Source: Dictyostelium discoideum (taxonomy: Eukaryota). From it: 64,000 nucleotides of DNA. Position 1 is the stretch's first letter, and the number at the start of each line of letters is the position of its first letter. The translations under genes and the position numbers were made by a program. Location: NCBI GenBank assembly GCA_000004695.1, contig CM000154.2, forward strand, positions 1,440,001-1,504,000. Reading direction: 5' to 3'. Below are positions 8,037-48,042 of the stretch, piece by piece. The notes under the pieces were generated by a model, which saw only the letters and a program-made list of their open reading frames with translations, made no database searches and was not told the DNA's origin.

Positions 8037-9134
8037 TTTTTTATTTATTTATTTAACACACACACAAACACACACAATAAAGAGGGAGAGGAAAAAAAAA
8101 TTTTAAATGAATTATTTATAAACAAAAGTATATATAGTATTTATAAAACTATATAAATAATAAAAAAAAAAAAAAAAAATTATAAAAACTAAATGTAAAT
8201 ATATGTTTTTTTTTTTTTTTTGGTTTTTTTTTTGGTTTTTTTTGGGTTGTTTTTTTTTTTTTTTTTTTTGGGTTGTGTTTTTTTTTTTTTTTTTTATATT
8301 TTTTTTTTTTATATTTTTTTTTTTTTTTTTGGTAATCCTTTTTTTTTTTTGTGTGATTGGAATGAAAATTGGTGATTAAAAAAAAAAAAAAAAATTGGTC
8401 AAGACTGTGAGTTTTTAAAAAAAAAAAAAAAATAAATAAAAATAAATAACAATTAAATTTAATTAAATATTTTTTTAATAATTATTTTTGTTTTTTGTTT
8501 TTTGTTTTTTGTTTTTTTGGTGTGTTTTTTGAGTGGTTTGTGTAAAACACAAGTGAGTGTTTTATTTTTTTTGTGATTATTAATAGATTTGGTTGTCACG
8601 ATGTGTTTTTTTATTATTTTTTTTTATTTATTTTTACTCTTTGTAGGAAAATTAAATAAATAATATAAATACAACAATAATGATATAAATACAGATGAAT
8701 ACAGATAGAATAAATATTGTTTTTTTTTTTTATTATTATTATTATTTTTTTTTTTTTACTTTATTTTATTTACTTATTTATTTTATTTTTATTTTATTTT
8801 TATTTTTTTATGATATTAATTGGTGATATTATTTTTTGTGATATCATACACAACAATTGTTTTTTTATTTTTTTTTAATAAAAAAAAAAAAAAATAATAA
8901 AATAAAAAAAAATAAAATAATAAATAAAAATAAAAAATTATAAAAACACAATAAATTTCTTTTTTTGTTCTAAAATAATAATAGAAAATGATATATTTTT
9001 AAAAAAAAAAAACAAAACAAAAAAAAAAAAAAAAAAAAAAGTTTTTTTTTTAATTATTATTTTTTTATTTTTTTTTTTTTTTTTTTTCTAAATCCTCTAA
9101 ATAAAGGGGTAGCAACATTAAAAATTTAAAAAAA

Positions 9135-28985: not shown

Positions 28986-30618
28986 AAGAGCACACACCAA
29001 AAATTTGAAAAAAAAAACAAAATAATAATATAATTTTTTTTTTTTTGGAAATTTTTTTTTTAAAAAAAATTTCTTATTTTCACTGTTTCATTTTTGATAA
29101 AAATATAAAAAAAAAACTTAAAAAAAAGGAAAAACTGAATAATAACTGTTTTTTTTAAAACATATGATTTATTCTATGTAAATAATAGTAAATTAATAAC
29201 CTATCATTGAATGAACCCTGATTTTTTTTTTTTATTCAAAATAAAAAAATAAATAAAAAATAAATAAATAAATAAATAAATCACTTTAAAAAAACAGACC
29301 AAAATCTCTTTAAAATAGGGTGTTTTGTTTTTATTTTATGAACAAAAATTTGATATTTATTTTAGGAAAAACACTCAATTCAATAATTCTTTATGAATTT
29401 ATAAAACATTTAAAAATATTTTTAAAAACTACATTTATATCTAATATGTTAAAATAAAATAAAAAAAAAAAAGTTTTCTTTTGTATAATTTATTTATTTT
29501 TATTCATTTTTAATAATTTATTTTTATTTATATATTTTAAATATTAAAATAAAATGAAAAAATCTAAATATAATATTTTTTATAAATAGATATAAAAAAA
29601 TGATTAATTACATTTTTATGATTCGCGATCAAGAAAATATTTTTTTTTTTTAAATTTTCTTACCGAAAAAAGTTTCGGTTTTTTAATTTTTTTTTCTCTA
29701 GAGAAGTTCAGTTTCAAAAAGGCTTTTTATTTTATAAAAAAAAAAAAATTAAAATTTATTTTTTTTTTAATTTTTTTTTTTTAAATTTTTTTTTTTTTTC
29801 AAAAAATCGTCGAGCGGCCTGCGCTACAAAAGAAAATTTTTTCTATTTTTTTATTTTTTTTTTTTTTTAACTCTCGAGTGCAAAAAAAGGTTAGTAATAA
29901 ACTTTTGCTAAATATTTCTATTTTTATTTTTTTATTATTTATTTGTTTTAAAAATATCAATACTATTACCAATATATATTTATATACACACATACCCACA
30001 CACACAACATTAAAAAAAAAAAAAAATAATAAAATAAAAATAAAAAAAAAAAGTGAACATGTCAAGCGATAAAATAAATTTCTCACCTTTTGTGTTAAAG
30101 TGTGTTACAGCGATAGTGAAATAAATAAATAAAAATAATAATAAAATAATAATTAATTTTTTGTTTTTTGTTTTTTTTTTTTGTTTTTGTTTTTATTGAA
30201 TAAAAAAAAAAAAAAATTATAAAAACAATTACTTTTTTATTTTTTGTGTGTGTAAAATTTCCTATAATCGTAATTTCTCAACAATACTTTAGAAAAAAAA
30301 AAAAAAAAATAGTTTCACAAATGTAATTTATATTAAAAAAAAAAAAAAAAAACGAGTTTTCATTTTTTTTTTTTCATCACTCTTACATACACATTTTTTT
30401 TTTTTATTTTGTTATTGCAAACCTTCTCGAACTTTTTTTTTTTCAAAAAATAAAATAAATAAAAATTGTATTCTAATATTTTTTTTTCTTTAATTATTCT
30501 CAAAAAAAAATAATATAAATTTTTTTAAAAAAAAAACATTTAAATTTCTTTTTTACTTTTTTATATATATATATATACACATTTCAATTTTTTTAAAATA
30601 TAATTAGTAAAGTACAAA

Positions 30619-33138
30619 ATGGTTAATTTCACAATCGATCAAATTCGTGCCATTATGGACCGTCGTGAAAATATCAGAAATATGTCTGTTATTGCTCATG
30701 TCGATCACGGTAAAACCACTTTATCAGATTCTTTAATCCAAAGAGCTGGTATTATTGCCGATAAAGTTTCTGGTGATATGAGATATATGTCATGTCGTGC
30801 TGATGAACAAGAGCGTGGTATCACCATTAAATCTTCATCTGTATCACTTCACTTCGAAATGCCAAAGGAAGACAAATTACCAGCTGGTTGTACTTCACAC
30901 GAATTTTTAATCAATCTTATCGATTCCCCAGGTCACGTTGATTTCAGTTCAGAAGTAACTGCTGCCCTCCGTGTTACTGATGGTGCTTTAGTCGTTATCG
31001 ATTGCGTCGAAGGTGTTTGCGTACAAACCGAAACTGTATTACGTCAAGCCGTCGCTGAACGTATCAAACCAGTCTTATTCGTCAACAAAGTCGATCGTTT
31101 CTTATTAGAACTCCAATTAAACACTGAAGAAGCTTATCTCTCTTTCCGTAGAGCTATTGAATCCGTCAATGTCATTGTTGGTAACACTGAAGATAAGGAA
31201 TTCGGTGATGTCACTGTATCCCCAGAAAAAGGTACCGTCGCTTTCGGTTCTGGTCTCCACGGTTGGGGTTTCACCTTAGGTCGTTTCGCTAAATTATACG
31301 CTGCTAAATTTGGTGTCCCAGAAGATAAATTAATGGGTCGTTTATGGGGTGACAGCTATTTCGATGCTACCGCCAAGAAATGGACTTCCAATCCACAATC
31401 TGCCGATGGTAAAGCCTTACCAAGAGCTTTCTGTCAATTCGTTCTCGAACCAATCTACCAATTAACCAGAGCCATCGTTGATGAAGATGCCGTCAAACTC
31501 GAAAAGATGATGAAGACTCTCCAAATCACTTTAGCCCCAGAAGATGCTGAAATCAAAGGTAAACAATTAGTTAAAGCCGTCATGAGAAAATTCCTTCCAG
31601 CCGCCGATGCTATTTTATCTATGATTGTCACCCATTTACCATCACCATTAGTTGCCCAAAAGTACCGTTGTGCCAATCTCTATGAAGGTCCAATGGACGA
31701 TGAATGTGCCGTCGCCATTCAAAAATGTGATCCAAACGGTCCATTAATGATGTACGTATCAAAGATGGTTCCAACCTCTGATAAAGGTCGTTTCTATGCT
31801 TTCGGTCGTGTCTTCTCAGGTATCATCCGTACCGGTCAAAAGGTCAGAATTATGGGTGTCAACTACGTCCCAGGTAAGAAAGACGATTTATTCTTAAAAT
31901 CCATCCAACGTACCGTTCTTATGATGGGTAGAAAGACTGAACAAATTGAAGATTGTCCATGTGGTAACATTGTTGGTTTAGTCGGTGTCGATCAATTCCT
32001 TGTCAAATCTGGTACCATCACCACCTCTGAAGTTGCTCACAACATTCGTGTCATGAAATTCTCCGTATCACCAGTCGTCCGTGTTGCCGTCGAACCAAAG
32101 AATCCATCTGATTTACCAAAACTCGTCGAAGGTCTCAAACGTTTAGCCAAATCCGATCCATGTGTACTCTGTTACTCTGAAGAATCTGGTGAACACATCG
32201 TTGCCGGTGCTGGTGAACTCCATCTCGAAATTTGTCTTAAAGATCTTGCTGAAGATCACGCTGGTATTGAAATTAAAACCACCGATCCAGTCGTATCATT
32301 CAGAGAATCCGTCTCAGAAGAATCATCAATCATGTGTCTTTCTAAATCACCAAACAAACACAATCGTCTCTTCATGAAAGCTTCACCAATCTCTATGGAA
32401 TTACAAGATCTCATTGAAGCTGGTTCTGATATCTCATCCAAAGATGATCCAAAAGCTCGTGCTAACTATCTCGCTGATAACCACGAATGGGATAAAAATG
32501 ATGCCATGAACATTTGGTCTTTCGGTCCAGAAGGTAACGGTGCCAATCTCCTCGTCAATGTCACCAAAGGTGTTCAATATTTGAATGAAATTAAAGATTC
32601 TTTCGTTGGTGCTTTCCAATGGGCCACCAAAGAAGGTGTTGTTTGTGATGAAAACATGAGAGGTATCCGTTTCAATCTTTATGATGTCACCCTCCACACT
32701 GATGCCATCCACAGAGGTGGTGGTCAAATCATCCCAACTGCTCGTCGTGTACTCTATGCTGCTGAATTAACTGCCTCCCCAACTCTCTTAGAACCAATCT
32801 ACTTAGTAGAAATTACTGCCCCAGAAAACGCTATTGGTGGTATTTACTCTGTACTCAATCGTCGTAGAGGTATTGTTATTGGTGAAGAACGTCGTATCGG
32901 TTCCCCATTATTCTCTGTCAAAGCTCATTTACCAGTATTAGAATCCTTCGGTTTCACCGCTGATTTACGTTCCCACACTGCCGGTCAAGCTTTCCCACAA
33001 TGTGTCTTCGATCATTGGGCTTCAATTGGTGTTGTCAACAAAGATAAGAAAGCCACTGAAGTCGCTTTAGCCACCAGAAAGAGAAAAGGTTTAGCCCCAG
33101 AAATCCCAGATCTTGACAAATTCCACGAAAAACTCTAA
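30619..33138 (+). CDS. efbA: Translation elongation factor 2 (EF-2), single exon, 839 aa
   Basis: The ORF is 30619..33138. The N-terminus is [73 protein letters not shown]. The GTP-binding G motifs are present, and the diphthamide-region motif [25 protein letters not shown] and a canonical EF-2 C-terminus are also present. Codon usage is GC-rich for this genome, which fits a highly expressed gene. Confidence 0.97.
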
Positions 33139-33460: not shown

Positions 33461-33519
33461 GTTGGCCTTACAGCAAATTCTCACAAATTTTTACTGATTA
33501 AAAAAAACCCCTTGTCAAC
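33461..33519 (+). ncRNA. Class I RNA (Dictyostelid-specific small ncRNA)
   Basis: The sequence is GTTGG-CCTTACAGCAA-ATTCTCACAAATTTTTACTGATTAAAAAAAACCCCTTGTCAAC. The exact conserved 11-nt Class I motif CCTTACAGCAA lies immediately after a 5' GTTGG. This GTTGG can pair with the 3' TCAAC (33515..33519) to form the terminal stem characteristic of the class. The length is about 59 nt. A DUSE lies upstream. The location is the efbA/accA convergent intergenic region. Confidence 0.55.
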
Positions 33520-34053
33520 TGTCCACTTTTATTTTTTTTTTGTTTGTTGTCCTGAAACGGGGATAATTTTTTGTGAATGACAAATTATCCACTATTTAAT
33601 GTATCAGTGAAAAAAATTTAAAACAAGATCCAAGCAATTTTAAATTTCTAAACGATTTCTTTTGTAAAATTTACAGACTAAGAAAATTAACATGCAAAGC
33701 TTATTTTATTCTGGAATCTGTGCTTTCGAATATATTTACTTTGCCCAATTCATATAATTAACTACAATTTCAATATTAAATTTATCGATTTAATTCATTT
33801 AATTTAAAACATGGGTGTATTAAAAAAAAAAAAAAAAAAAAAAAATAATAATGCACTAAATTTTAAAATTCTTTATTTGCTAACTCAAACAAAAAAAAAA
33901 AAAAAAGAAAAACTACTTTACATTTTAAAATTAAAATTCATAAATAAAACTATTTCATTGTTTATTCCTTTAATGTATAAACACTGATTAATCAATATTA
34001 AAAAAAAAAAAAAAAAAAAAAAGTAAACCAACAAGTAAAAAAAAAAAGTACAA

Positions 34054-34121: not shown

Positions 34122-37100
34122 TTATTTATTTAAATCTTTTTTCAAAGATTCAAATAAAAATTCTTTTTGTTGAGTTGAAATAAAAGGTAAAAGATTTTGG
34201 AAACCATCAACGATTGATTCTGAATCTGATTGAACAAAATTTAAAATTTGATTGATAGCATATTGTTTTGAAAGATCAATAATCTTATCATTAATTATAT
34301 GAGAATTTGATTCGATTGTTGAAGAAATTAATTTATCGTTTTGATGGTAATCAACTGATTGATTGTTACCAAGGATTTGTTTAATCCAAGTTTCCAATAG
34401 ATTCAATTTTGATTGACGATTTAAACCTGGATGAGATTTATCGATTAATTTTAATTTATCCTCTTCAAATAATCTTCTCTTTATACGATCATAGAAGAAG
34501 GAACGAGCCGATTTCCATGGTACCATTTGTTTAATAACACCCTTTGCTTTCATTCTACCTGGAGTATCATGAAGATCAGCAAATTTAATGGCAATTTGTT
34601 GATAAATACCCAAGAGTTCTTTTTCTCTTTGTTGAATTTGAGATTTAATGGTCTTTTGAGATTGATCCAAACCATTGACACTAACACCAATTGGAATTGA
34701 TTTATCCCATTCAATAAGTTTTGGATCTAAACGATGCATAGTTTTAATGAGTTCTGGATCTCTATATTTAATTTCAGCGATACCATTTGGTTCCAATACA
34801 CCACCTCTACCTTCTTCACTACAATACATTTCCATCATATCCAAATTGATTGTTGAATCTAAAACTACCCAAGCACCACCACGTAATTCAGCAAATGGTG
34901 GAATATAGACCATAACTGGTTGTTTATAGTTTCTAAGGTTATCGACAATCATTGAACCAAATTTAAGGATTTCATCAAACATATCTCTCATACCACCACT
35001 AAAACCTCTCCAATTGGCCAAGATCATCAATGGTAACTCTTCACCATTATTGAAATCAGCGATTGCTTGAGCGGTCTTGAATGAAGAATCTGGATACCAA
35101 ACTTGGCCTGCTTGAGTATTAACTTGTTCATAAGAGAGTGGATTTGCTGGATCAGCAGGAATGATCTTTTCAACACTCTTTGTCTCGACTGCAATGATAC
35201 CAACTGGAATACCACCTAACCTAGCACGACCAGTGATTACAGTATTTGCCCAGCCAGCCAATGTTTCCATGAAACTATCCTTATCAAACATACCAGAAAT
35301 CCAATAGTTTGGATCGAGTTCCGATTGTAAACCTGCAATCAAATGTCTAGTATCACATTTACCATTGATTGAATTGGAAGGATCAAATTCGATATCTCTG
35401 TGTGGTGAATCGATTGGTGAAATAATTGGTACCATTTCACCACCACTCTTTGGTACAAATGATAACCATTGAAGTACATTTGTAATACCACGAAGTTCAT
35501 CATTGACAATGATATGAGAAACACCATTTGGATACATAATTTGTGAACCACCCAATTGTTGATTGGATTCATAGACTTCTTTACCCAAAACTTTATTCAA
35601 AGCTGAAGCACCAGTTAAAATGATTGGAGCATCATTTTGAATGGTTCTTTGACCCAATCTAACTAGGTATGCACCAATACCAACTGAACGACCTGATACG
35701 AGTGTAATTGTAAAGATTTCATTGTAAGCTTGTGAGGTTTCACCAGCGATTAAACCTGACCAACTTAAATTTTCAACACCAATACCATTTTTTTGACCAA
35801 TGATATCATGAATGATCCATTTGTCTTTATCGGTAGTATCTTGATAAGCAATGACACTATCTTTTAATGCTTGATAATCGTTATTGGTTAAATAAAGGTT
35901 TTTAATACCTTTGGTTGGATCGGATGGAACGTTCCAAGTTACTTTAAATTTACTCTTAATTTCATCGGCTAAACCAATTCTAGCACCAGAATTTGAAGAT
36001 AAATAAATTCTTGGTATTTTTTCTTTTCTTGCCAATTCCGAAGCCAATTTAAATAACATATCTTCTTGTGGACCGAATGAACCAATTTGGTGAGTGATAT
36101 CATTAGCAATCACTATGGCCTGTCTACCTAATGGATATTCAGGAGTATAGAAAGTCATTCTCCAAGCTACCATACCAATATCATTGTAACCAATTGGACG
36201 ATAGGTTTCTTCAAGTTTTGGTTTACTCTCTTCTGGTAATTGATCCAATGGAATTGATGGTGGGAAATCAGTATTGATAGTAGATGGTAGAATCAATTCA
36301 ACACTTTCTAAAACACCACGAGATGATGGATAAACCTTGACAGGATTTGTTTTATTTGATTCCATAAATTCCATCCAAATGTTTTGCATTGCCTCTCTAA
36401 AGAGATCAGGATAATCATAACAATAGGTTGTATCTAAACGTTGAGCTTTAAATCTATTTCTTTGAACAGCATCCATAATTGGGTAAGGTGTATCAACTGG
36501 TAAACCTTCCCAACTACCTTTTGAACTACCAGGTACAACTGCGAAAACCATTTGACCAATTGAATTTTGTTGTTCATAATAGCATTGAACTTGGAAAGCA
36601 TAACCAGTTGGGTTTTGTACAAAGAAACGAACTGGAATTAAACCATCACCTTTTCTAATACGACCTCTAACCTCTACACGACCAACTCTAAGTTTCCAAA
36701 GTCTTTTACCTAAACGATCACCAATCTCTTGAACTACATAACCAATCATTTTCTCATCAAACATTACCTCTGGCATTACATTTAAAAATATTGAATGATT
36801 TTGTGCTTTTTCATACTTTTTATTTGACATTGCAATCTCTAATGATTCAATTGACTCTGAGAGTAGAGTTTCAATTTGTGATAATAAAATATCAACTTTA
36901 ATCTCATTGGAATGACCATATAGATCTGAATAACGAATAACTGAACGTACAAAGAAACTACGATCAGCATCCGGATCAGTTTCTTTCTTACCTTTCTCTT
37001 GAGCATAGTAGAGATGAATTCTTTGACTAGTGGTTGGAACGTGAGTTATATCGAAATTTGATAATTTTCTAACCTCTAAATGATAGGCCATAGCTGGTTC

Positions 37101-40100
37101 AATATGTCTAAAGATTGGATCCTCCATATACATATGACGTTCTCTAAAAGTGAAATATTTCAATGGTTTACCTTCATCACCACCACAACAAATAAATGTT
37201 ATACGACGAATACGTGCAATTGACAACTCTTTAATATAACCCTTTAATATTGATTGGAATGAAGAGATAGCTTGATTCTCTTGTGAGATTGATTCTGGAT
37301 AGATTGAAATGATAACACTAAGAATATCTGTACTTTCATTTGGTGAGAGGGATAATTGAGATTTCTTATTATTCTCTTCATTGTAGCGTGTTAAAATCAA
37401 TGGTAATTTCTCTTCAAATTTCTTTTCATTTTCAAAGAATACCATCATACCATAACGAAGTTTTGTTTGATCTTCCATTGCAGTTAATGAGTCAGTTGAA
37501 TCAGTTCTTAACATTGATAAACCATTAAAAATTGACATTGATGGTCTTGGTGAAATTTGGAAACCACTACCACCACTACTACCACCACTACTACTAATAG
37601 ATCTTATTAATGGTGAACCATAAGTTGGTGAGCCACTATTACTACCACCAAGATTTGATTGTTGTGGTAAATTAATATAGAAATGCCATTCAATGAATGA
37701 AAATCCACTTGATCCTTCATCATTTGATAGTGTAACTTTAGTATCTTCAACATAATAGGAACGATAACTATGACGTACATAAACTTCCATTGCTAATTTA
37801 CGAATATCATCATCATTATTTGATTCATTGAAAAACATTGGTATTAAAATATCACTAATTTCATTTGTTTGTTTTGATAATTTTGAAATTTTTTCATCCT
37901 TATTATCTTGAACTTTTTCATCAACTTGTTGTTGTTGTTCATTGTTTACATTTAAAATTGATTTTAATGAATTAATTAAATCATTTGATCTTTGTTTATT
38001 TGAAGGTAATTGAGAATGAACCATGATATGTTTAGCTTTTAAAGAGATTTCCATACAATTACCACCAAGTGATGATAATTTTTTAAATTGTTCAACGAAA
38101 TCACAAACTAAACCTTGTTCTTGAATTTTATTTAGTAATAATAAAATGAATTTATATTTTTTAGATTGTGGATGTAATGATTGAGCGATATCAACAACCT
38201 TTGAAATATTATCTTTATAGGTAGGTCTAATTGATTTTAAAACTGTTTGAATATTTTTATTTTGTAAATTAGTTTCAATTTGAATGAATTCTTCTAAATA
38301 ATTTTTAAAGATATTAATCGCAGCGAATGAAACACCATCATTATATTTCTCTGCTAATAAAATGATTGGTTTAATTAATAATTGAATTGCAATTGATAAT
38401 TGTTCATTCTCTAATAATAATTTATTTAAATATAATGAAATTGATAATTGTAAATTTTTTGAATTAAATAATTCACTATCATCTTCATCGTCGTCGTCAT
38501 TATTAAATTCAAATTTATTTAATTCATCATTAATTAATTTAAATAATGATTGTGGTATTCTTGACTGAACAATTGATAATTGTTCTTTAAATTCAAATAA
38601 TGGTAATTTTTGATTTGATAATTGTTTAATTGTATCATTTAAAAGTTGATTTAAATCATTTGATTCATAACCACATAAAACATTTGAAATTTTACCAAGA
38701 GTATAATTTAAGAGTTGATGTGGTTTATTACCAATTAGAGTTGGTGGTGACATTTTTGTAAGGGAACCAGTGAAAACGGTTGATTTTTGAATTGATGATT
38801 GGTCTGATAATTCCAAGTTAGCAATGATTGCACCAGGTGCCATTACTGAACCTTCAGTGAGTACGAATTTAATGATACCTTTCTCTGGTACTAACAATGG
38901 CATATACATTTTCATAACTTCAATCTCTGCAAATGGAGTACCTTTTACAACTAATGAACCATCATCAACCAAATAACGTACTAATTTACCAGGTGATGAG
39001 GTTCTAAGTATACTTGGATCATATTCTTGAGAGAAAACACAAGTTTTAGAGTCAATCATTAATGATAACCCAATTACATCCTCTCTACCATAACAAACAT
39101 GTGTTGAACCATTCAATAGAATTAATAAACCACTATCGGATAACATTATAACACTTGAATCGATTGAGACTGCACTTTTATCATTCTTTAAACAAACTGA
39201 ATAATTGTTTATACCAGTTCTTGAGACTTCAAATTGATATTTAACATTATTATAGATCAATTCAATTGGTAGCGAATTATTTAATAACTCCAAACTTGGT
39301 AATTGACCATTTGATAATTGATTTGAGAATTCTTGAATCTTTGTTGAGAAAATGGTTGAAGCTTTATAGATTGCACCACATAATACAACGATCATTGTTT
39401 CTGGTTTTTTAGTTTGAATCTTTTCACTAATCAATTGATCTAACCAACCGGTATGAATATGGTTCTCTTTGAAATCTTTACTCTCCAATAAATGAATGAT
39501 ATATTCCACTGGGGTTCTAATATCACCACGAATTGAAATCTCTTTTAGACCCAAAATAATGGTTTTTCTAGCTTCTTCTCTTGTTGCACCATTGGCAAAG
39601 ATATGACCAAATTGTGAATCTGCATACTCGTGAAGACCACCTTTAGCACCAACACTGAAATAACCCCAAATATTTGGTGTACTTCTAAAGGTGAGTTCAT
39701 GGATTTGACCAGACGTTGGTTTAAAACCCTCATCAGGATTTTCACCTGTGATTCTAACTGCAATACAATGACCAGCTGGTGGATTACGTTTAGTGAAATC
39801 GTGTAAATCAATCATTGAATCCCCATAGAGATCATCACCAGTACGACCATACAATTTTCTAATATCCGGTATTCTATGTAATGGTATACCCATTGCAATT
39901 TGTAATTGAGTTGCTGGTAAATTTACACCAGTGATTTGTTCAGTCACTGGATGTTCAACTTGAAGACGTGGATTCAATTCCAAAAAGTAATATTCTCCCT
40001 CTGCAAATAAATACTCTACTGTACCAGCACCAACATAACCAACCTCTTTGACTAAACGTACGGCGGCACGTTCCATCTCTTCCCAAACTTGTGGGGTTGG

Positions 40101-40970
40101 TGCAATTGCTGGACCCTCTTCAATGATCTTTTGATGACGACGTTGTACTGAACAATCACGACCATTCAATGAGATGGCTTCACCATGACGATCGGCAACG
40201 ATTTGAACCTCTAAATGACGGGCATTCGATACTAACTTCATAAAGAAAATCGGTGAACCTGGTACTTCATTTTGAACCTGTCTAAACGATGACTCGAGAT
40301 CCTCCATTGAGGTCACCTTTCTAATACCTTTACCACCACCACCTTCACTTGCTTTAATCATTGCTGGGAAACCAACACGTTGAGCACATTCACGTGCCTC
40401 CTCAACTGAATTGATACATGCACGACCATAGATTTCCGATGGTACGCCATTACATTCGCTATAGTCCACTTTTAATCCACTACCACTCCATGGTACACAT
40501 GCGACACGTGCACTTTGTGCAACGATTGTCGATGCAATTTTATCACCTAAATCTGCCATAGCCTTGGCGGGTGGCCCAATGAAAACTATACCTGTCTCTG
40601 TTTTTGATAAAAGGTCTGGTAAACGTGGATTCTCTGATGCGTGTCCCCAACCGGCCCAAACAGCTTGTACACCAGCTCGTTCTGCAAAATCTACAATAAT
40701 ATCCACATTTGCATAGTTGTTATTATTCGATCCACCTGGTACCTGTAATATTTGGTCTGCCATTCTAATATATTCAGCGTTTGCCTTCATATCCTCTGGT
40801 GTTGCCATCACAACAAATTTAATTGCTCTTTCATTACCAAAGTTTGTATATGCCCATTTTCTAACTGATCTAATTGCTTTTACCGCTGCTATACCATTAT
40901 TTGCAATTAATATCTTTTCTATATTTTTATCACCTCCTAATTTTTTAATATATTCATTAATTTCAATCAT
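34122..40970 (-). CDS. accA: Acetyl-CoA carboxylase (biotin carboxylase - BCCP - carboxyltransferase), about 2280 aa
   Basis: The ORF is 34122..40997 (2291 aa). The listed start is TTG. The first in-frame ATG is at 40970 (MIEINEYIKKLGGDKNIEKILIANNGIAAVKAIRSVRKW...). Biotin carboxylase motifs are present (GWGHASENP, EGGGGKGIRKV, the ATP-grasp fold), as is the biotinylation site EVMKMYMPL and the carboxyltransferase motif (GGAWVV, ANWRGFSGG). A tttcAG acceptor sits immediately 5' of the ATG, so an additional short 5' exon cannot be excluded. Confidence 0.93.
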   Translation of the reverse strand: MIEINEYIKKLGGDKNIEKILIANNGIAAVKAIRSVRKWAYTNFGNERAIKFVVMATPEDMKANAEYIRMADQILQVPGGSNNNNYANVDIIVDFAERAGVQAVWAGWGHASENPRLPDLLSKTETGIVFIGPPAKAMADLGDKIASTIVAQSARVACVPWSGSGLKVDYSECNGVPSEIYGRACINSVEEARECAQRVGFPAMIKASEGGGGKGIRKVTSMEDLESSFRQVQNEVPGSPIFFMKLVSNARHLEVQIVADRHGEAISLNGRDCSVQRRHQKIIEEGPAIAPTPQVWEEMERAAVRLVKEVGYVGAGTVEYLFAEGEYYFLELNPRLQVEHPVTEQITGVNLPATQLQIAMGIPLHRIPDIRKLYGRTGDDLYGDSMIDLHDFTKRNPPAGHCIAVRITGENPDEGFKPTSGQIHELTFRSTPNIWGYFSVGAKGGLHEYADSQFGHIFANGATREEARKTIILGLKEISIRGDIRTPVEYIIHLLESKDFKENHIHTGWLDQLISEKIQTKKPETMIVVLCGAIYKASTIFSTKIQEFSNQLSNGQLPSLELLNNSLPIELIYNNVKYQFEVSRTGINNYSVCLKNDKSAVSIDSSVIMLSDSGLLILLNGSTHVCYGREDVIGLSLMIDSKTCVFSQEYDPSILRTSSPGKLVRYLVDDGSLVVKGTPFAEIEVMKMYMPLLVPEKGIIKFVLTEGSVMAPGAIIANLELSDQSSIQKSTVFTGSLTKMSPPTLIGNKPHQLLNYTLGKISNVLCGYESNDLNQLLNDTIKQLSNQKLPLFEFKEQLSIVQSRIPQSLFKLINDELNKFEFNNDDDDEDDSELFNSKNLQLSISLYLNKLLLENEQLSIAIQLLIKPIILLAEKYNDGVSFAAINIFKNYLEEFIQIETNLQNKNIQTVLKSIRPTYKDNISKVVDIAQSLHPQSKKYKFILLLLNKIQEQGLVCDFVEQFKKLSSLGGNCMEISLKAKHIMVHSQLPSNKQRSNDLINSLKSILNVNNEQQQQVDEKVQDNKDEKISKLSKQTNEISDILIPMFFNESNNDDDIRKLAMEVYVRHSYRSYYVEDTKVTLSNDEGSSGFSFIEWHFYINLPQQSNLGGSNSGSPTYGSPLIRSISSSGGSSGGSGFQISPRPSMSIFNGLSMLRTDSTDSLTAMEDQTKLRYGMMVFFENEKKFEEKLPLILTRYNEENNKKSQLSLSPNESTDILSVIISIYPESISQENQAISSFQSILKGYIKELSIARIRRITFICCGGDEGKPLKYFTFRERHMYMEDPIFRHIEPAMAYHLEVRKLSNFDITHVPTTSQRIHLYYAQEKGKKETDPDADRSFFVRSVIRYSDLYGHSNEIKVDILLSQIETLLSESIESLEIAMSNKKYEKAQNHSIFLNVMPEVMFDEKMIGYVVQEIGDRLGKRLWKLRVGRVEVRGRIRKGDGLIPVRFFVQNPTGYAFQVQCYYEQQNSIGQMVFAVVPGSSKGSWEGLPVDTPYPIMDAVQRNRFKAQRLDTTYCYDYPDLFREAMQNIWMEFMESNKTNPVKVYPSSRGVLESVELILPSTINTDFPPSIPLDQLPEESKPKLEETYRPIGYNDIGMVAWRMTFYTPEYPLGRQAIVIANDITHQIGSFGPQEDMLFKLASELARKEKIPRIYLSSNSGARIGLADEIKSKFKVTWNVPSDPTKGIKNLYLTNNDYQALKDSVIAYQDTTDKDKWIIHDIIGQKNGIGVENLSWSGLIAGETSQAYNEIFTITLVSGRSVGIGAYLVRLGQRTIQNDAPIILTGASALNKVLGKEVYESNQQLGGSQIMYPNGVSHIIVNDELRGITNVLQWLSFVPKSGGEMVPIISPIDSPHRDIEFDPSNSINGKCDTRHLIAGLQSELDPNYWISGMFDKDSFMETLAGWANTVITGRARLGGIPVGIIAVETKSVEKIIPADPANPLSYEQVNTQAGQVWYPDSSFKTAQAIADFNNGEELPLMILANWRGFSGGMRDMFDEILKFGSMIVDNLRNYKQPVMVYIPPFAELRGGAWVVLDSTINLDMMEMYCSEEGRGGVLEPNGIAEIKYRDPELIKTMHRLDPKLIEWDKSIPIGVSVNGLDQSQKTIKSQIQQREKELLGIYQQIAIKFADLHDTPGRMKAKGVIKQMVPWKSARSFFYDRIKRRLFEEDKLKLIDKSHPGLNRQSKLNLLETWIKQILGNNQSVDYHQNDKLISSTIESNSHIINDKIIDLSKQYAINQILNFVQSDSESIVDGFQNLLPFISTQQKEFLFESLKKDLNK

Positions 40971-41459
40971 TTCATCTGAAATAATTTTAAAAAACAATTA
41001 AAAAAAATAAAAATAAAAAAAAAAATAAAAAAAAAAATAAAAAAAAAAATAAAAAAAAAAAAAAAATGAAAATATTAATATTTTAAAACAGTAATTAAAT
41101 TATTTTTAAAAATAAATATGATTAAAAAAAAAAAAAAAAATAAAAAAAAAATAAAGTAAAAAACAAATAAAATAAATACTAATAAAAAACTATATTGAAA
41201 CTATTTAAAGTTTTTAACCTATATTACAATTTTTCTATGTTGGTTATGGTTTGGTTGTTAATTTCCTTATCCCCTTTTTTTTTTTTTTTTTTGTTTTTTT
41301 TTTTTTTTTATTTTTTTTTAAAAAAAAAAAAAAAAATTAATTTTAAATTATAAGTTTGAAAGTTTTAATTTGTTATTGTTATTATTGTTATTGTTTTTAT
41401 TTCTATATTTTTATTGTTGTTGTTATTGTTGTTATTACCCGTATTTTATTATTTTATTA

Positions 41460-41491
<32 letters not shown>

Positions 41492-41587
41492 TATATATAA
41501 ATTATCTTAATTATATATTACAACTCCAATATTATTACAATTGTTATTAATGATATCTATTAATGTTTATAGGGTAGCCTTTGTTTG

Positions 41588-41644
41588 AGTGTTGTGTATT
41601 GTGTGGTGTGTGGGTGTGTGGGTTTGTTATGAATGTGTGTGTTT
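41588..41644 (+). promoter_or_regulatory. GT-rich G-box / CA-rich-element (CAE)-like block in the accA upstream region
   Basis: The sequence is gtgttgtgtattgtgtggtgtgtgggtgtgtgggtttgttatgaatgtgtgtgttttgg. It contains iterated TGTGGG/GTGTG half-sites of the type bound by the Dictyostelium G-box-binding factor. It lies about 600 bp upstream of the accA start, on the minus strand, and is flanked by pure A/T. Confidence 0.35.
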
Positions 41645-41699
41645 TGGTTTTGGGTTTGGGTTTGGGTTTGGGTTTGGGTTTGGGTTTGGGTTTGGGTTT
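41645..41699 (+). repeat. (GGGTTT)n hexanucleotide microsatellite, about 9 copies; G-quadruplex-capable
   Basis: The sequence is ttttgggtttgggtttgggtttgggtttgggtttgggtttgggtttgggtttt, a perfect tandem array. It lies immediately 3' of the GT-rich block. Confidence 0.9.
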
Positions 41700-41783
41700 T
41701 ATTTATAAGGGATTAATTTCTAAAGTTAATTTTATTTTAAATAGATTAGTATAACTTTTAAAATTTACAGATTTAAAAATTAA

Positions 41784-41823
<40 letters not shown>

Positions 41824-42056
41824 CTTTTTTCTTTTTTTTTTTATTTTTTATTTTTTTTATTTTTTTTCTTCTTATTTTGTTTCTTTTTATATCAGACAAA
41901 AAATCTATTTAGAGGATGAAACTCCTCAAGTTGAAAGATTTATTTTAAAATCCGATTAAAGGAATAAAAAATAAAAAAAAAAAAAAGTATATAAAAAGGA
42001 ATTCCATCAAATAATAAAAAAAAAATAAAATAAAAAAAAGATATTTTGATATTTTA

Positions 42057-42108
42057 ATTTTTTATTTTATTTTATTTTATTTTATTTTATTTTATTTTAT
42101 TTTATTTT
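42057..42108. repeat. (TTTTA)n pentanucleotide repeat
   Basis: The sequence is ttttattttattttattttattttattttattttattttatttta. Confidence 0.85.
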
Positions 42109-42203
42109 AAAATTTTTTTATATTACAATTTAAAATCGTATTTGATTATTCGGGTAAAAATAATTATTGTTTTAATTAATTGAAATGAGCACTTCTTGCC
42201 TTG

Positions 42204-42243
<40 letters not shown>

Positions 42244-42941
42244 AAAATGAAAATTATTTTTTTAAAAAATGAAATTAAAAAAAAAATTAAAAAAAAAAAA
42301 AAAGATATTTTTTGATTAAAGGGATTTTTATTATTTATTTTTATTTATTTTATTTTATTTTTTTTTTTTTATTTTCGTCTGAAAATATTTTTTGGTTGGG
42401 AAAACAAAAAAAAATAAAAAAATAAAAAAAACTAATTAATAGTTAATAGTTAACTATATTGGTGACGAATATAGATTTTTTTTTTAATTTTTAAAAAATA
42501 AAAAAATAAAAAATATTGAAAGTTGATGGTTTTTTTCTTTTTTCCCAAAATGTTTTAATTATTTTTAATTTTTTTTTTTTTTTTTTTTTTTTTGACACCT
42601 TACAATGTGTTTGTTAATATTTATTTTTTTTTTTTTTTTTTAAAAAAAAAAGATTTGACCAGTCAAAAAATTTTGTATTATCTTTTGGAATATCATAGGT
42701 TTTATCTTAAATTTTCGTTTAATCTTTATTAGCGTCATAAATTACTTATTATTAATAATATTGTCATCATTACAATAACATTTATTTATTTATTTTATTT
42801 TTTGGTTTTATAAATAATTTTTGATGGGTTGCACCACAATAAAAAAAAAAAAAAAAAAAAACCATCCCAAGATCTTTAATTTTCGAATGTACACTTTGTT
42901 TTATTTTATTTCGTTTATTTTTTATATTCTCTCTAAAGATA

Positions 42942-44969
<2,028 letters not shown>

Positions 44970-46051
44970 TTAAATTCAAAAAGTAAAAAATAATGTGAAA
45001 AAAAAAATAAAAAAAAAAAAAAAAAAAAATAAAAAAAAATCTTTTTTTTAAATTTTTTTTTATTTTTTTTAATTTTTTTTTAATTAATAAATTTTTATTT
45101 TCTTATTTTTAATTTCCTTAAATGGAAATATTAAAAAATTATCAATGAAATATTTGGAAATACTTTTAACCTTCAAAAAATTCCAATGTAAATAAAGTCT
45201 TAAAATTTCAATCAAAAAAGAAATTAATTTTGTTTTTATTAAATTTCTTATTAAACAAAAATAATTAAAAAAAAAAAAGAGTTTAGAAAAAGATAAAAAT
45301 TAATTCCTATTATATCAAAATGAATTGAAATTTTAAATAAAATTCCAATATATATGATTGTTTTGGATGAAGTAATTTTTTAAAAATAGAATTTATTGAA
45401 AAAAAAAAAAAAAAAAAAAGTTTAAACCAAGAAATAATTTATAATTTCAAAATAAAAGCACTAAACCAATAAAAAAATTAATTTTTAATAATAAATAATA
45501 TTAATATTCTTATCCATTTCATAAAAAAACATCATAATTTTTTTTTTTTTTATAACACTAATAAAATATAAAAAATTAATATTATTTATTCATTTGTTTT
45601 AAAAAATATTAAAAACCACACCAACATCGAATTTTTTTTTTTTTTTTTTAAAAAAATGTACAAAATTGGAAAATCTCCCACACACACCCACACAAACCAT
45701 TAAAAGTGAAAAACATAATTCTTGATAAATTAGTGCCATAGAAAAAACTTAAACAAATAAATACATACACAAATTCAACTAGTATCATACTTAGGCAAAG
45801 GAATTTTTTTATTTTTTAAAATTTTTTTAATTTTAATTTTTATTTTTATTTTATATAACCCACACGTATTAGTTTTCTAAACCATTGTTTTCTATTTTTT
45901 TTTATATTTTTTTTTTTTATTTTTTTTTTTTTTTTTTTTTTATATTTTTTAATTTTTTAAAACTCTTTTAATTTATTTATTGTATAAAAAAAATTTTATT
46001 TTGTAATAAGTCAACAAATATCAATAATTTAATAAAAAATCTTTAGATCTT

Positions 46052-47994: not shown

Positions 47995-47999
<5 letters not shown>

Positions 48000-48029
<30 letters not shown>

Positions 48030-48042
48030 GTGTGTTGTGTGT
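48000..48042. repeat. (GT)n microsatellite about 30 bp upstream of the U1A start codon
   Basis: The sequence is gtgtgtgtgtgtgtgtgtgtgtgtgttgtgtgttgtgtgtg. Confidence 0.9.

What the first reader, a model, noticed from the sequence alone, without database searches (positions are those of the whole stretch)
41576..41700. GT-rich G-box-like block plus perfect (GGGTTT)9 array upstream of accA: potential G-quadruplex / GBF-binding regulatory region
In a genome where intergenic DNA is almost exclusively A/T, the 125-bp stretch gtgttgtgtattgtgtggtgtgtgggtgtgtggg...(gggttt)9 stands out. The first half resembles the GT-rich G-box/CAE elements bound by the G-box-binding factor in developmentally regulated promoters. 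The second half is a telomere-like hexamer array with nine G3 tracts separated by TTT loops. This is an ideal intramolecular G-quadruplex former on the non-template side of accA.
Basis: partly seen in the sequence, partly recalled or inferred. Interest (0 to 1): 0.5.

Follow-up and report, generated by a model that had tools for sequence, protein, structure and literature searches.

The report
Microsatellite beside a CA-rich promoter island
The G-rich stretch upstream of the Dictyostelium acetyl-CoA carboxylase gene is a fast-evolving six-base simple repeat next to a partly conserved GT/CA-rich promoter-type element, and the runs of three G that would make it an "ideal G-quadruplex" are missing from a second assembly of the same species, so it is ordinary and may partly be a sequencing error.

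Summary
The block exists and is the G-richest 125 nt of the window (53 G, 64 T). The array is GGTTTT plus 8 perfect GGGTTT (41646-41699), not 9 perfect units. It lies 619-729 bp upstream of the accA ATG. Its G-rich strand is the template strand for accA, not the non-template strand.

Orthologous loci split the block into two parts.

(1) The hexamer array sits in a hypervariable simple-repeat slot:
- (GGTTTT)9 in a second D. discoideum assembly whose accA CDS is 100% identical
- 2-3 GGTTTT-type units in D. cf. discoideum
- (ATTT)n in D. citrinum
- a T-run in D. firmibasis

G3 tracts occur only in this window. They belong to 26 substitutions packed into about 1 kb, against 2 in the other 21.5 kb compared. 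The clusters lie next to long homopolymers, the window base almost always copies a neighbouring base, and the outgroups side with the other assembly. This looks like post-homopolymer miscalling in the reference. Without the disputed G, G4 potential vanishes.

(2) The GT block (41589-41645) carries 10 overlapping matches to the GBF half-site consensus. Its 26-nt core is retained in sister species. Seven such islands occur in 64 kb. It is a plausible but untested CAE/G-box-class element.

Verdict: ordinary, low interest.

The parts
41646..41699 (.). Hexanucleotide microsatellite: GGTTTT x1 + GGGTTT x8 on the + strand, which reads (AAACCC)8 AAAACC on the accA-sense strand
   Evidence: The orthologous slot holds (GGTTTT)9 in D. 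discoideum GCA_054883475.1, 3 and 2 GGTTTT-type units in two D. cf. discoideum assemblies, (ATTT)n in D. citrinum and a T-run of about 21 in D. firmibasis.
41589..41645 (.). GT-rich (+ strand) / CA-rich (accA-sense strand) island: a degenerate TGTGTGGG / (GT)n repeat with 10 overlapping KGKGKGK (GBF half-site consensus) matches
   Evidence: It is 100% identical in GCA_054883475.1, near-identical in one D. cf. discoideum assembly, and replaced by (CA)11 in the other.
41617..41642 (-). Conserved core of the island. On the accA-sense strand it reads ACACACACATTCATAACAAACCCACA
   Evidence: Retained at the orthologous position in D. cf. discoideum, in D. citrinum (ACACACACTCATAATAACCCCACA) and in D. 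firmibasis (ATACATATTCATAACAATACCCACA). Coordinates.
34122..40970 (-). accA (acetyl-CoA carboxylase) coding sequence. The block lies 619-729 bp upstream of its ATG (40968-40970)
41654..41783 (.). Main cluster of discrepancies between the window and D. discoideum GCA_054883475.1: 17 substitutions, including the T/G position of all 8 GGGTTT units. It lies directly beside the T36 run at 41788-41823
   Evidence: Outgroups agree with the other assembly at 41711, 41719, 41727, 41733, 41738 and 41765.
41261..41295 (.). Second discrepancy cluster (5 substitutions plus indels), beside the T-runs at 41275-41309
42254..42287 (.). Third discrepancy cluster (4 substitutions), 15-48 bp to the right of the A36 run at 42204-42239

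Best explanation
The 125-bp block is two unrelated things side by side in the 5' flank of accA.

(a) 41646-41699 is an ordinary, young hexanucleotide microsatellite of the GGTTTT type. It grew by replication slippage in a slot that carries a different A/T-rich simple repeat in each related lineage. It has no conserved sequence and probably no specific function. At most it acts as a spacer of variable length. The GGGTTT spelling that creates eight G3 tracts is peculiar to this window's sequence. Most likely (about 0.65) it is a base-calling error of the reference, made in reads that had just crossed a long homopolymer. Such reads give a one-base phase-shifted signal, so a base is called as a copy of its neighbour.

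(b) 41589-41645 is a CA-rich (accA-sense) / GT-rich island of a kind that recurs in Dictyostelium intergenic DNA. Its 26-nt core (ACACACACATTCATAACAAACCCACA) is kept in sister species. It is therefore the part most likely to be a real cis-element of the accA upstream region, working by binding a sequence-specific factor of the G-box/CAE-recognising type.

Shown: the anatomy, the non-conservation of the array, the discrepancy pattern, the motif matches and the core conservation. Inferred: the artefact mechanism and any protein binding.
For: Microsatellite behaviour. TRF finds period 6, 9.5 copies, 98% matches. The orthologous slot holds (GGTTTT)9, 3 units, 2 units, (ATTT)n and a T-run of about 21 in six other assemblies, while both flanks align. 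There is no ORF in any frame, no tRNA and no Rfam match. SSRs make up 14.3% of the D. discoideum genome and slippage is frequent (PMC7466956).

G3 tracts not reproducible. GCA_054883475.1 has an accA CDS 100% identical at nucleotide level over 6849 nt. Over 22.6 kb it differs from the window by only 28 substitutions, and 26 of these lie in 41261-42287. They form three clusters, each beside a homopolymer of 16-36 nt. In the 14 cleanly aligned substitutions examined (12 non-array sites plus 2 of the 8 array units), the window base always equals an adjacent base. For the 12 of these in 41261-41765 it equals the 3' neighbour on the accA-sense strand. At four sites the other assembly's base equals neither neighbour. 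D. cf. discoideum, D. citrinum and the Illumina-polished D. firmibasis assembly agree with GCA_054883475.1 at the sites that can be aligned between 41711 and 41765. D. cf. discoideum and D. citrinum also agree with it at 41261-41274. The measured base-substitution rate of 2.47e-11 per site per generation makes a real burst of 26 changes in 1 kb very unlikely.

G4 potential hangs on that one base. G4Hunter gives 1.56 for the window against a maximum of 1.12 for the whole block in the other assembly. The ViennaRNA G4 model gives -25.28 against 0.00 kcal/mol.

GT island. There are 10 KGKGKGK hits in 60 nt, against a maximum of 6 in any of 100 simulations. The core is conserved out to species whose accA third-codon identity is 0.84 and 0.79.
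Against: I do not know the strain or the sequencing technology of GCA_054883475.1, and I could not obtain a third D. discoideum source (searches found nothing). A real strain difference in the array is therefore not excluded.

If the new assemblies share a technology, a systematic miscall of (AAACCC)n as (AAAACC)n could be common to them. The agreement of the independently produced, Illumina-polished D. firmibasis assembly covers only the non-repeat sites.

A stutter artefact would be expected to continue past the array, but the discrepancies stop at its proximal unit. At 41261-41274 D. firmibasis shares GGGG with the window, so not every window state is unique.

Conservation of the GT-island core (about 83-88% identity) is not clearly above third-codon identity. 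One D. cf. discoideum assembly replaced most of the island with (CA)11. The island could therefore itself be a decaying compound microsatellite.
Confidence: 0.7

Rival explanations
1. The (GGGTTT)n array is a genuine intramolecular G-quadruplex former that regulates accA transcription, for example by stalling or opening the duplex upstream of the gene.
For: In the window the motif is canonical, with 8 G3 tracts and TTT loops. It is the only G4Hunter hit at or above 1.5 in 64 kb. The G4 model predicts -25.3 kcal/mol. The identical 45-mer is a standard G4 oligo. G4-prone motifs are about 1.4-fold enriched in D. discoideum promoter regions (PMC6511855).
Against: G3 tracts are absent from a second D. 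discoideum assembly with an identical accA CDS and from all four related lineages that can be aligned here. The slot is occupied by unrelated simple repeats elsewhere. The G4Hunter score only just reaches the lowest threshold used for this genome (1.5; 1055 such motifs). The G strand is the template strand, 676-729 bp from the ATG. The G3 spelling coincides with a cluster of probable miscalls.
Confidence: 0.07
2. The GT-rich half is a bona fide GBF (G-box binding factor) site that puts accA under post-aggregative, cAMP-dependent developmental control.
For: There are multiple overlapping matches to the GBF response element KGKGKGK. On the gene's sense strand it reads CA-rich, like the CAEs of prespore genes (orientation of CAEs is from my own knowledge). 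The half-site TGTGGGT (ACCCACA) is kept in D. cf. discoideum GCA_054859205 and D. firmibasis, and as CCCCACA in D. citrinum.
Against: The consensus is degenerate. Seven clusters occur in this window, including plain (GT)n and (AC)n repeats and one 613 bp upstream of the housekeeping gene efbA. accA encodes a core metabolic enzyme, and I found no literature on GBF dependence. No binding or expression data are available here.
Confidence: 0.15
3. The whole 125 bp is functionless. It is a compound, decaying (GT)n / (GGTTTT)n microsatellite with no role in accA expression, and the apparent core conservation is only shared ancestry.
For: TRF also scores the GT half as a period-2 GT repeat (29 copies, 64% matches) and as TGTGTGGG x3.6. 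One D. cf. discoideum assembly has a pure (CA)11 in its place. Core identity to D. citrinum and D. firmibasis (about 83-88%) is similar to third-codon identity (0.84 and 0.79).
Against: Much of the surrounding AT-rich intergenic DNA is unalignable between these species, whereas the core and several neighbouring blocks align well. This suggests constraint. C/G-containing positions are kept in a 15% GC background.
Confidence: 0.3
4. The window's sequence is correct and the AX4 lineage really carries a local burst of about 26 'copy-the-neighbour' substitutions. These would include conversion of (GGTTTT)8 to (GGGTTT)8, produced by error-prone synthesis with primer-template dislocation around structure-prone repeats and homopolymers.
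For: All changes are derived in the window lineage and share one signature. They are confined to 1 kb. Dislocation mutagenesis produces exactly neighbour-copy substitutions (my own knowledge).
Against: The base-substitution rate is extremely low. Eight identical hits in eight successive repeat units with the copy number unchanged (9 and 9) would be needed. The same signature is the classic result of phase-shifted Sanger traces after homopolymers.
Confidence: 0.08

Closest known systems
Non-coding simple sequence repeats (microsatellites) of Dictyostelium discoideum
   Same: Perfect head-to-tail short unit in AT-rich intergenic DNA. The copy number and even the unit differ between very close relatives at the same locus. 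There is no coding or RNA signal.
   Different: The unit contains G, whereas most non-coding SSRs in this genome are pure A/T. It is a hexamer. In the window's spelling it happens to meet the G4 motif definition.
G4-prone sequences catalogued in D. discoideum with G4Hunter (Saad et al. 2019, PMC6511855; Guedin et al. 2018, PMC6007418)
   Same: It is located within 1 kb upstream of a start codon. The G4Hunter score of 1.56 would place it among the 1055 motifs at threshold 1.5. Short tandem G-rich repeats are a recognised subclass there, for example (GGGGTT)n.
   Different: It is below the 2.0 threshold used for the motifs those papers characterised, and it is not named in the paper or in its held supplements. 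Here the G3 tracts are not reproduced in a second assembly.
G-box / CA-rich elements (CAE) bound by GBF in post-aggregative Dictyostelium promoters
   Same: Clustered KGKGKGK half-sites in a GT/CA-rich island several hundred bp upstream of a gene.
   Different: The gene is a housekeeping metabolic enzyme, not a known cAMP-induced developmental gene. No binding or expression evidence is available. The motif is common in this window.
Model oligonucleotide G3T3 / 8G3T3, (GGGTTT)7GGG
   Same: Identical in sequence to window 41652-41696, and listed as a G-quadruplex-forming oligo in PMC8305571.
   Different: That is single-stranded DNA in vitro. Here the sequence is duplex chromosomal DNA, and its G3 spelling is in doubt.

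Membership tests
Canonical intramolecular G-quadruplex motif (PQS / G4FS) | At least four runs of 3 or more G separated by loops of 1-7 nt | tested here: met
   Window 41652-41696 has eight G3 runs with TTT loops. The feature is not met by the orthologous sequence in GCA_054883475.1, which is (GGTTTT)9.
Canonical intramolecular G-quadruplex motif (PQS / G4FS) | G4Hunter score at or above the threshold used for this genome (1.5-2.0) | tested here: inconclusive
   The maximum is 1.56. This is above 1.5 but below 1.75 and 2.0. The other assembly's block reaches only 1.12 (thresholds).
Canonical intramolecular G-quadruplex motif (PQS / G4FS) | Folds into a G4 in vitro (CD, TDS, melting) | not testable with these tools
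   The identical 45-mer is listed as the G4 oligo 8G3T3 in PMC8305571. The ViennaRNA G4 energy model gives -25.28 kcal/mol for the window against 0.00 for the other spelling.
Functional promoter G4 | Motif maintained in independent isolates and related species at the orthologous position | tested here: not met
   There are no G3 tracts in the second D. discoideum assembly, either D. cf. discoideum, either D. citrinum, or D. firmibasis. D. purpureum has no alignable block.
Functional promoter G4 | Perturbing the G4 changes expression of the adjacent gene | not testable with these tools
   No expression or reporter data are available.
GBF-binding G-box / CAE | Two or more half-sites matching (T/G)G(T/G)G(T/G)G(T/G) | tested here: met
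   There are 10 overlapping matches in 41600-41642. Simulated sequences gave at most 6 in 60 nt. The consensus is from PMC2257962. Specificity is low: there are 7 clusters in the window, including (GT)n.
GBF-binding G-box / CAE | Bound by GBF, and the target gene is GBF-dependent and induced after aggregation | not testable with these tools
   No ChIP, EMSA or expression data. The literature search on accA regulation found nothing.
GBF-binding G-box / CAE | Element conserved at the orthologous promoter position | tested here: inconclusive
   The core ACACACACATTCATAACAAACCCACA is retained with 2-4 changes in D. citrinum and D. firmibasis. The rest of the island is absent there, and it is replaced by (CA)11 in one D. 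cf. discoideum assembly.
Microsatellite (simple sequence repeat) | Tandem head-to-tail copies of a 1-6 bp unit | tested here: met
   TRF: period 6, 9.5 copies, 98% matches.
Microsatellite (simple sequence repeat) | Copy number or unit varies among close relatives while the flanks stay orthologous | tested here: met
   9, 9, 3 and 2 units, then (ATTT)n and a T-run of about 21 in the same slot, with both flanks aligned.
Telomere-type repeat | Matches the lineage's telomeric repeat and lies at a chromosome end | tested here: not met
   Dictyostelid telomeric repeats reported for D. firmibasis are GAGGAGAGAGTCCCTTTTTTT and GGGGAGAGACA, and none are conventional in D. discoideum (PMC11193728). The locus lies about 1.5 Mb inside a 5.29-Mb chromosome record.

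The most novel reading that the evidence does not exclude
The window's spelling is genuine. Within an otherwise near-identical genome, the AX4 lineage would then have suffered a localised shower of about 26 neighbour-copy substitutions in 1 kb of the accA 5' flank. This shower would have rewritten (GGTTTT)8 into a strong G4 motif. That would be a footprint of error-prone, dislocation-type DNA synthesis at homopolymer and repeat-rich DNA. It would also provide a natural near-isogenic pair of strains, with and without the G4, for testing G4 effects on accA.
Probability: 0.08. Interest if true: 0.55.

Novelty: new member of a known kind. Interest (0 to 1): 0.17.

Why it matters
The finding matters little for biology. 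It is one more microsatellite and one more GT/CA-rich island in a genome full of both.

Its practical value is as a caution. G4 catalogues and promoter-motif scans of D. discoideum rest on the reference sequence. At this locus the entire G4 call depends on one disputed base per repeat unit, inside a 1-kb stretch where the window differs from a second assembly about 270 times more often than in the other 21.5 kb compared.

If the conserved core (41617-41642) and the other conserved blocks upstream of accA are regulatory, they offer a small, testable entry point into control of fatty-acid synthesis in dictyostelids.

Tried and rejected
Coding sequence: rejected. All six frames have stops within about 60 codons, and only spurious ORFs of 27-57 aa exist.

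tRNA or known RNA family: none found (Rfam gathering thresholds; Rfam E<=1 on 40900-43000).

Telomeric repeat: rejected.

Recent transposon insertion: unlikely, because the GT island and both flanks are orthologous across species.

Attempts to get a third, independent D. discoideum read-out of the array all failed:
- an exact look-up of the 57-aa spurious ORF
- a homology search with it
- an exact 32-nt search of metagenome contigs

The Saad et al. supplements held as text do not list this motif or accA. Powell-Coffman 1994 and Eichinger 2005 are not held, so the CAE sequences could not be compared directly.

I could not identify the strain or the technology behind GCA_054883475.1. The candidate paper PMC13046832 deposited its assembly elsewhere.

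D. purpureum upstream DNA is too diverged to align.

An RNA-structure test of the conserved block at 42115-42205 showed no structure and no covariation.

Full report
CONTEXT

The window is Dictyostelium discoideum DNA. Overall GC is about 24%, and intergenic stretches are 13-16% GC. The minus-strand ORF 34122-40970 encodes a 2282-aa protein identical to D. discoideum acetyl-CoA carboxylase (accA, Q54J08). efbA (EF2) lies at 30619-33138 on the plus strand. The next gene to the right (42942-44969) is also on the minus strand. The interval 40971-42941 is therefore the 5' flank of accA. The finding lies inside it.

THE OBSERVATION

41576-41700 holds 53 G, 64 T, 6 A and 2 C, and is the G-richest 125-nt stretch of the whole window. 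The array is GGTTTT (41646-41651) followed by eight perfect GGGTTT (41652-41699), not nine perfect units. TRF gives period 6, 9.5 copies, 98% matches.

It is the only canonical G3 quadruplex motif in 64 kb and the only G4Hunter hit at or above 1.5, with a maximum of 1.56. The GT-rich half (41589-41645) is itself a degenerate repeat, TGTGTGGG x3.6, which TRF also scores as (GT)n.

The array lies 676-729 bp upstream of the accA ATG and the GT block 619-675 bp upstream. Because accA is on the minus strand, the G-rich plus strand is the template strand.

NOT CODING, NOT A KNOWN RNA

All six frames are closed within about 60 codons. There are no tRNAs. No Rfam family matches at gathering thresholds, nor at E<=1 in 40900-43000.

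COMPARATIVE EVIDENCE

I used the accA protein, its cluster members and its homologues to fetch the orthologous upstream DNA from these assemblies:
- a second D. discoideum assembly, GCA_054883475.1 (L001, L008)
- two 'D. cf. discoideum' assemblies (L004, L005)
- two D. citrinum assemblies (L006, L007)
- D. firmibasis (L002)
- D. purpureum (L003)

accA third-codon identity to the window is 1.000, 0.93-0.95, 0.84 and 0.79 for the first four groups. Alignments show that both flanks of the array are orthologous, but the slot itself holds a different simple repeat in each lineage:

| Assembly | Repeat in the slot |
|---|---|
| Window | GGTTTT + (GGGTTT)8 |
| Second D. discoideum | (GGTTTT)9 |
| D. 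cf. discoideum (two assemblies) | three and two GGTTTT-type units |
| D. citrinum | (ATTT)n |
| D. firmibasis | T-run of about 21 |

This is how a fast-evolving microsatellite behaves. It fits a genome that is 14.3% SSR and slippage-prone (PMC7466956). G3 tracts exist nowhere except in the window.

IS THE GGGTTT SPELLING REAL?

The second D. discoideum assembly is essentially the same genome. The accA CDS is identical at all 6849 nt. Over 22.6 kb there are only 28 substitutions, and 26 of them fall within 41261-42287. They form three clusters:
- 41261-41295, beside the T-runs at 41275-41309
- 41654-41783, beside the T36 run at 41788-41823
- 42254-42287, 15-48 bp to the right of the A36 run at 42204-42239

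I examined 14 cleanly aligned substitutions: 12 non-array sites and 2 of the 8 array units. In all 14 the window's base is a copy of an adjacent base. Reading away from the homopolymer, it equals the next base. At four sites the other assembly's base equals neither neighbour.

Where outgroups can be aligned between 41711 and 41765, D. cf. discoideum, D. citrinum and the 540x Illumina-polished D. firmibasis assembly carry the base of the second assembly, not that of the window. At 41261-41274, D. cf. discoideum and D. citrinum agree with the second assembly, while D. firmibasis shares GGGG with the window.

All 26 changes are thus derived on the window's side. The measured substitution rate is 2.47e-11 per site per generation, so a real burst of this kind is very unlikely. 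The pattern is what phase-shifted Sanger traces give after polymerase slippage in a long homopolymer. This mechanism is my inference, not a demonstration.

I put about 0.65 on the GGGTTT spelling being a reference error. The caveats are:
- I do not know the strain or the platform of GCA_054883475.1.
- The discrepancies stop abruptly at the proximal unit of the array.
- Three attempts to obtain a third source failed.

CONSEQUENCE FOR THE G4 READING

The window's G strand is predicted to form two tandem three-layer quadruplexes, at -25.28 kcal/mol in the ViennaRNA G4 model. The same 45-mer is a literature G4 oligo, '8G3T3' (PMC8305571). With T in place of the disputed G there is no predicted G4 (0.00 kcal/mol). 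The whole block in the second assembly reaches a G4Hunter maximum of only 1.12, and by hand a pure GGTTTT unit scores about 0.67.

Even taken at face value, 1.56 only just passes the lowest threshold used for this genome, at which 1055 motifs are called (PMC6511855). A regulatory G4 is therefore not supported. It is not conserved, it may not be real, and it is on the template strand far from the ATG.

THE GT-RICH HALF

[quoted passage not shown] This is more than any simulated sequence gave in 60 nt (maximum 6).

The consensus is loose, however. Seven clusters occur in this window. They include a pure (GT)n at 47996-48042, an (AC)n at 8056-8076, and similar CA-rich islands at 29986-30006 (613 bp upstream of efbA, also CA-rich on the sense strand), 45678-45694 and 62252-62295.

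Conservation is partial:
- The island is identical in the second D. discoideum assembly.
- It has two substitutions in one D. cf. discoideum assembly.
- It is largely replaced by (CA)11 in the other.
- In D. citrinum and D. firmibasis only the core ACACACACATTCATAACAAACCCACA (41617-41642, accA-sense strand) survives, with 2-4 changes.

The core is thus the best candidate for a true cis-element. Whether GBF binds it, and whether accA is developmentally regulated, could not be tested. A literature search found nothing on this.

COMPARISON WITH KNOWN KINDS

The array is a member of the ordinary microsatellite class. In the window's spelling it also meets the formal definition of a G4-prone sequence of the kind already catalogued for this genome.

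The GT island resembles G-box/CAE elements at motif level only. It is not a telomeric repeat. Dictyostelid telomere repeats are different sequences, and the locus is about 1.5 Mb inside a 5.29-Mb chromosome record.

VERDICT

The best explanation is a young (GGTTTT)n-type microsatellite next to a partly conserved CA-rich promoter island, with the 'ideal G4' probably created by miscalled bases. Interest is low. The main value is a caution about reference quality in homopolymer-flanked intergenic DNA, plus a few conserved non-coding blocks upstream of accA that may deserve experimental attention.

Noticed in passing
window 42118-42203 (minus strand), directly downstream on that strand of the 36-nt homopolymer at 42204-42239: An ~85-nt block, CAAGGCAAGAAGTGCTCATTTCAATTAATTAAAACAATAATTATTTTTACCCGAATAATCAAATACGATTTTAAATT|GTAATATA, is about 90% identical in D. 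cf. discoideum, D. citrinum and D. firmibasis. That is more conserved than accA third-codon positions. It looks like an oligo-dT run, then a transcription start, then a 5' splice donor, so it is a candidate non-coding first exon of accA. If so, the GT block and the array lie in a 5'-UTR intron of about 1.15 kb. There is no Rfam hit and no RNA structure or covariation.
   Followed up: partly
window 40971-40977 (minus strand): AGATGAA, which ends immediately before the annotated accA ATG (40970-40968), is invariant in all seven aligned upstream sequences. It follows a T-rich tract (TTATTTCAG|ATGAAATG). This is consistent with a conserved 3' splice site and a tiny ATG-AAA-TGA upstream ORF that overlaps the start codon.
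   Followed up: no
window 42119-42129, 41220-41230 and about 41520-41545 (minus strand): The motif AATTGTAATATA occurs exactly twice, and a third time as the variant CAATTGTAATAATATTGGAGTTGTAATATA. All three lie in the accA upstream region and are conserved across species. They could be splice donors of alternative first exons or a repeated cis-element.
   Followed up: partly
window 41890-41960 (minus strand): A conserved block, CGGATTTTAAAATAAATCTTTCAACTTGAGGAGTTTCATCCTCTAAATAGA, contains a GAGGA-N6-TCCTC inverted repeat. It is kept in D. cf. discoideum and partly in D. citrinum and D. firmibasis.
   Followed up: no
window 41261-42287 versus L001/L008: 26 of the 28 substitutions between the window and D. 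discoideum GCA_054883475.1 over 22.6 kb lie in this 1 kb. The remaining differences are almost all homopolymer-length indels. Locally, the sequence quality of one of the two assemblies is poor.
   Followed up: yes
window 33461-33521 (+): An Rfam Dicty_Class_I_RNA match (48.8 bits, E 2.3e-6) lies in the efbA-accA intergenic region.
   Followed up: no
window 29986-30006, 45678-45694, 62252-62295: These are further CA-rich islands sharing the ACCCACACA-type motif with the accA island. The first lies 613 bp upstream of the efbA ATG, is in the same sense orientation, and is at a similar distance from its gene as the accA island. CACCCACACA with up to 1 mismatch gives 22 hits against 1.2 expected, although about half come from (CA)n tracts.
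   Followed up: partly
L002 (D. firmibasis) downstream of accA: Synteny differs. In D. firmibasis accA is followed by a DUF2465 gene and another ORF rather than by efbA, whereas efbA follows accA in D. discoideum, D. cf. discoideum and D. citrinum.
   Followed up: no
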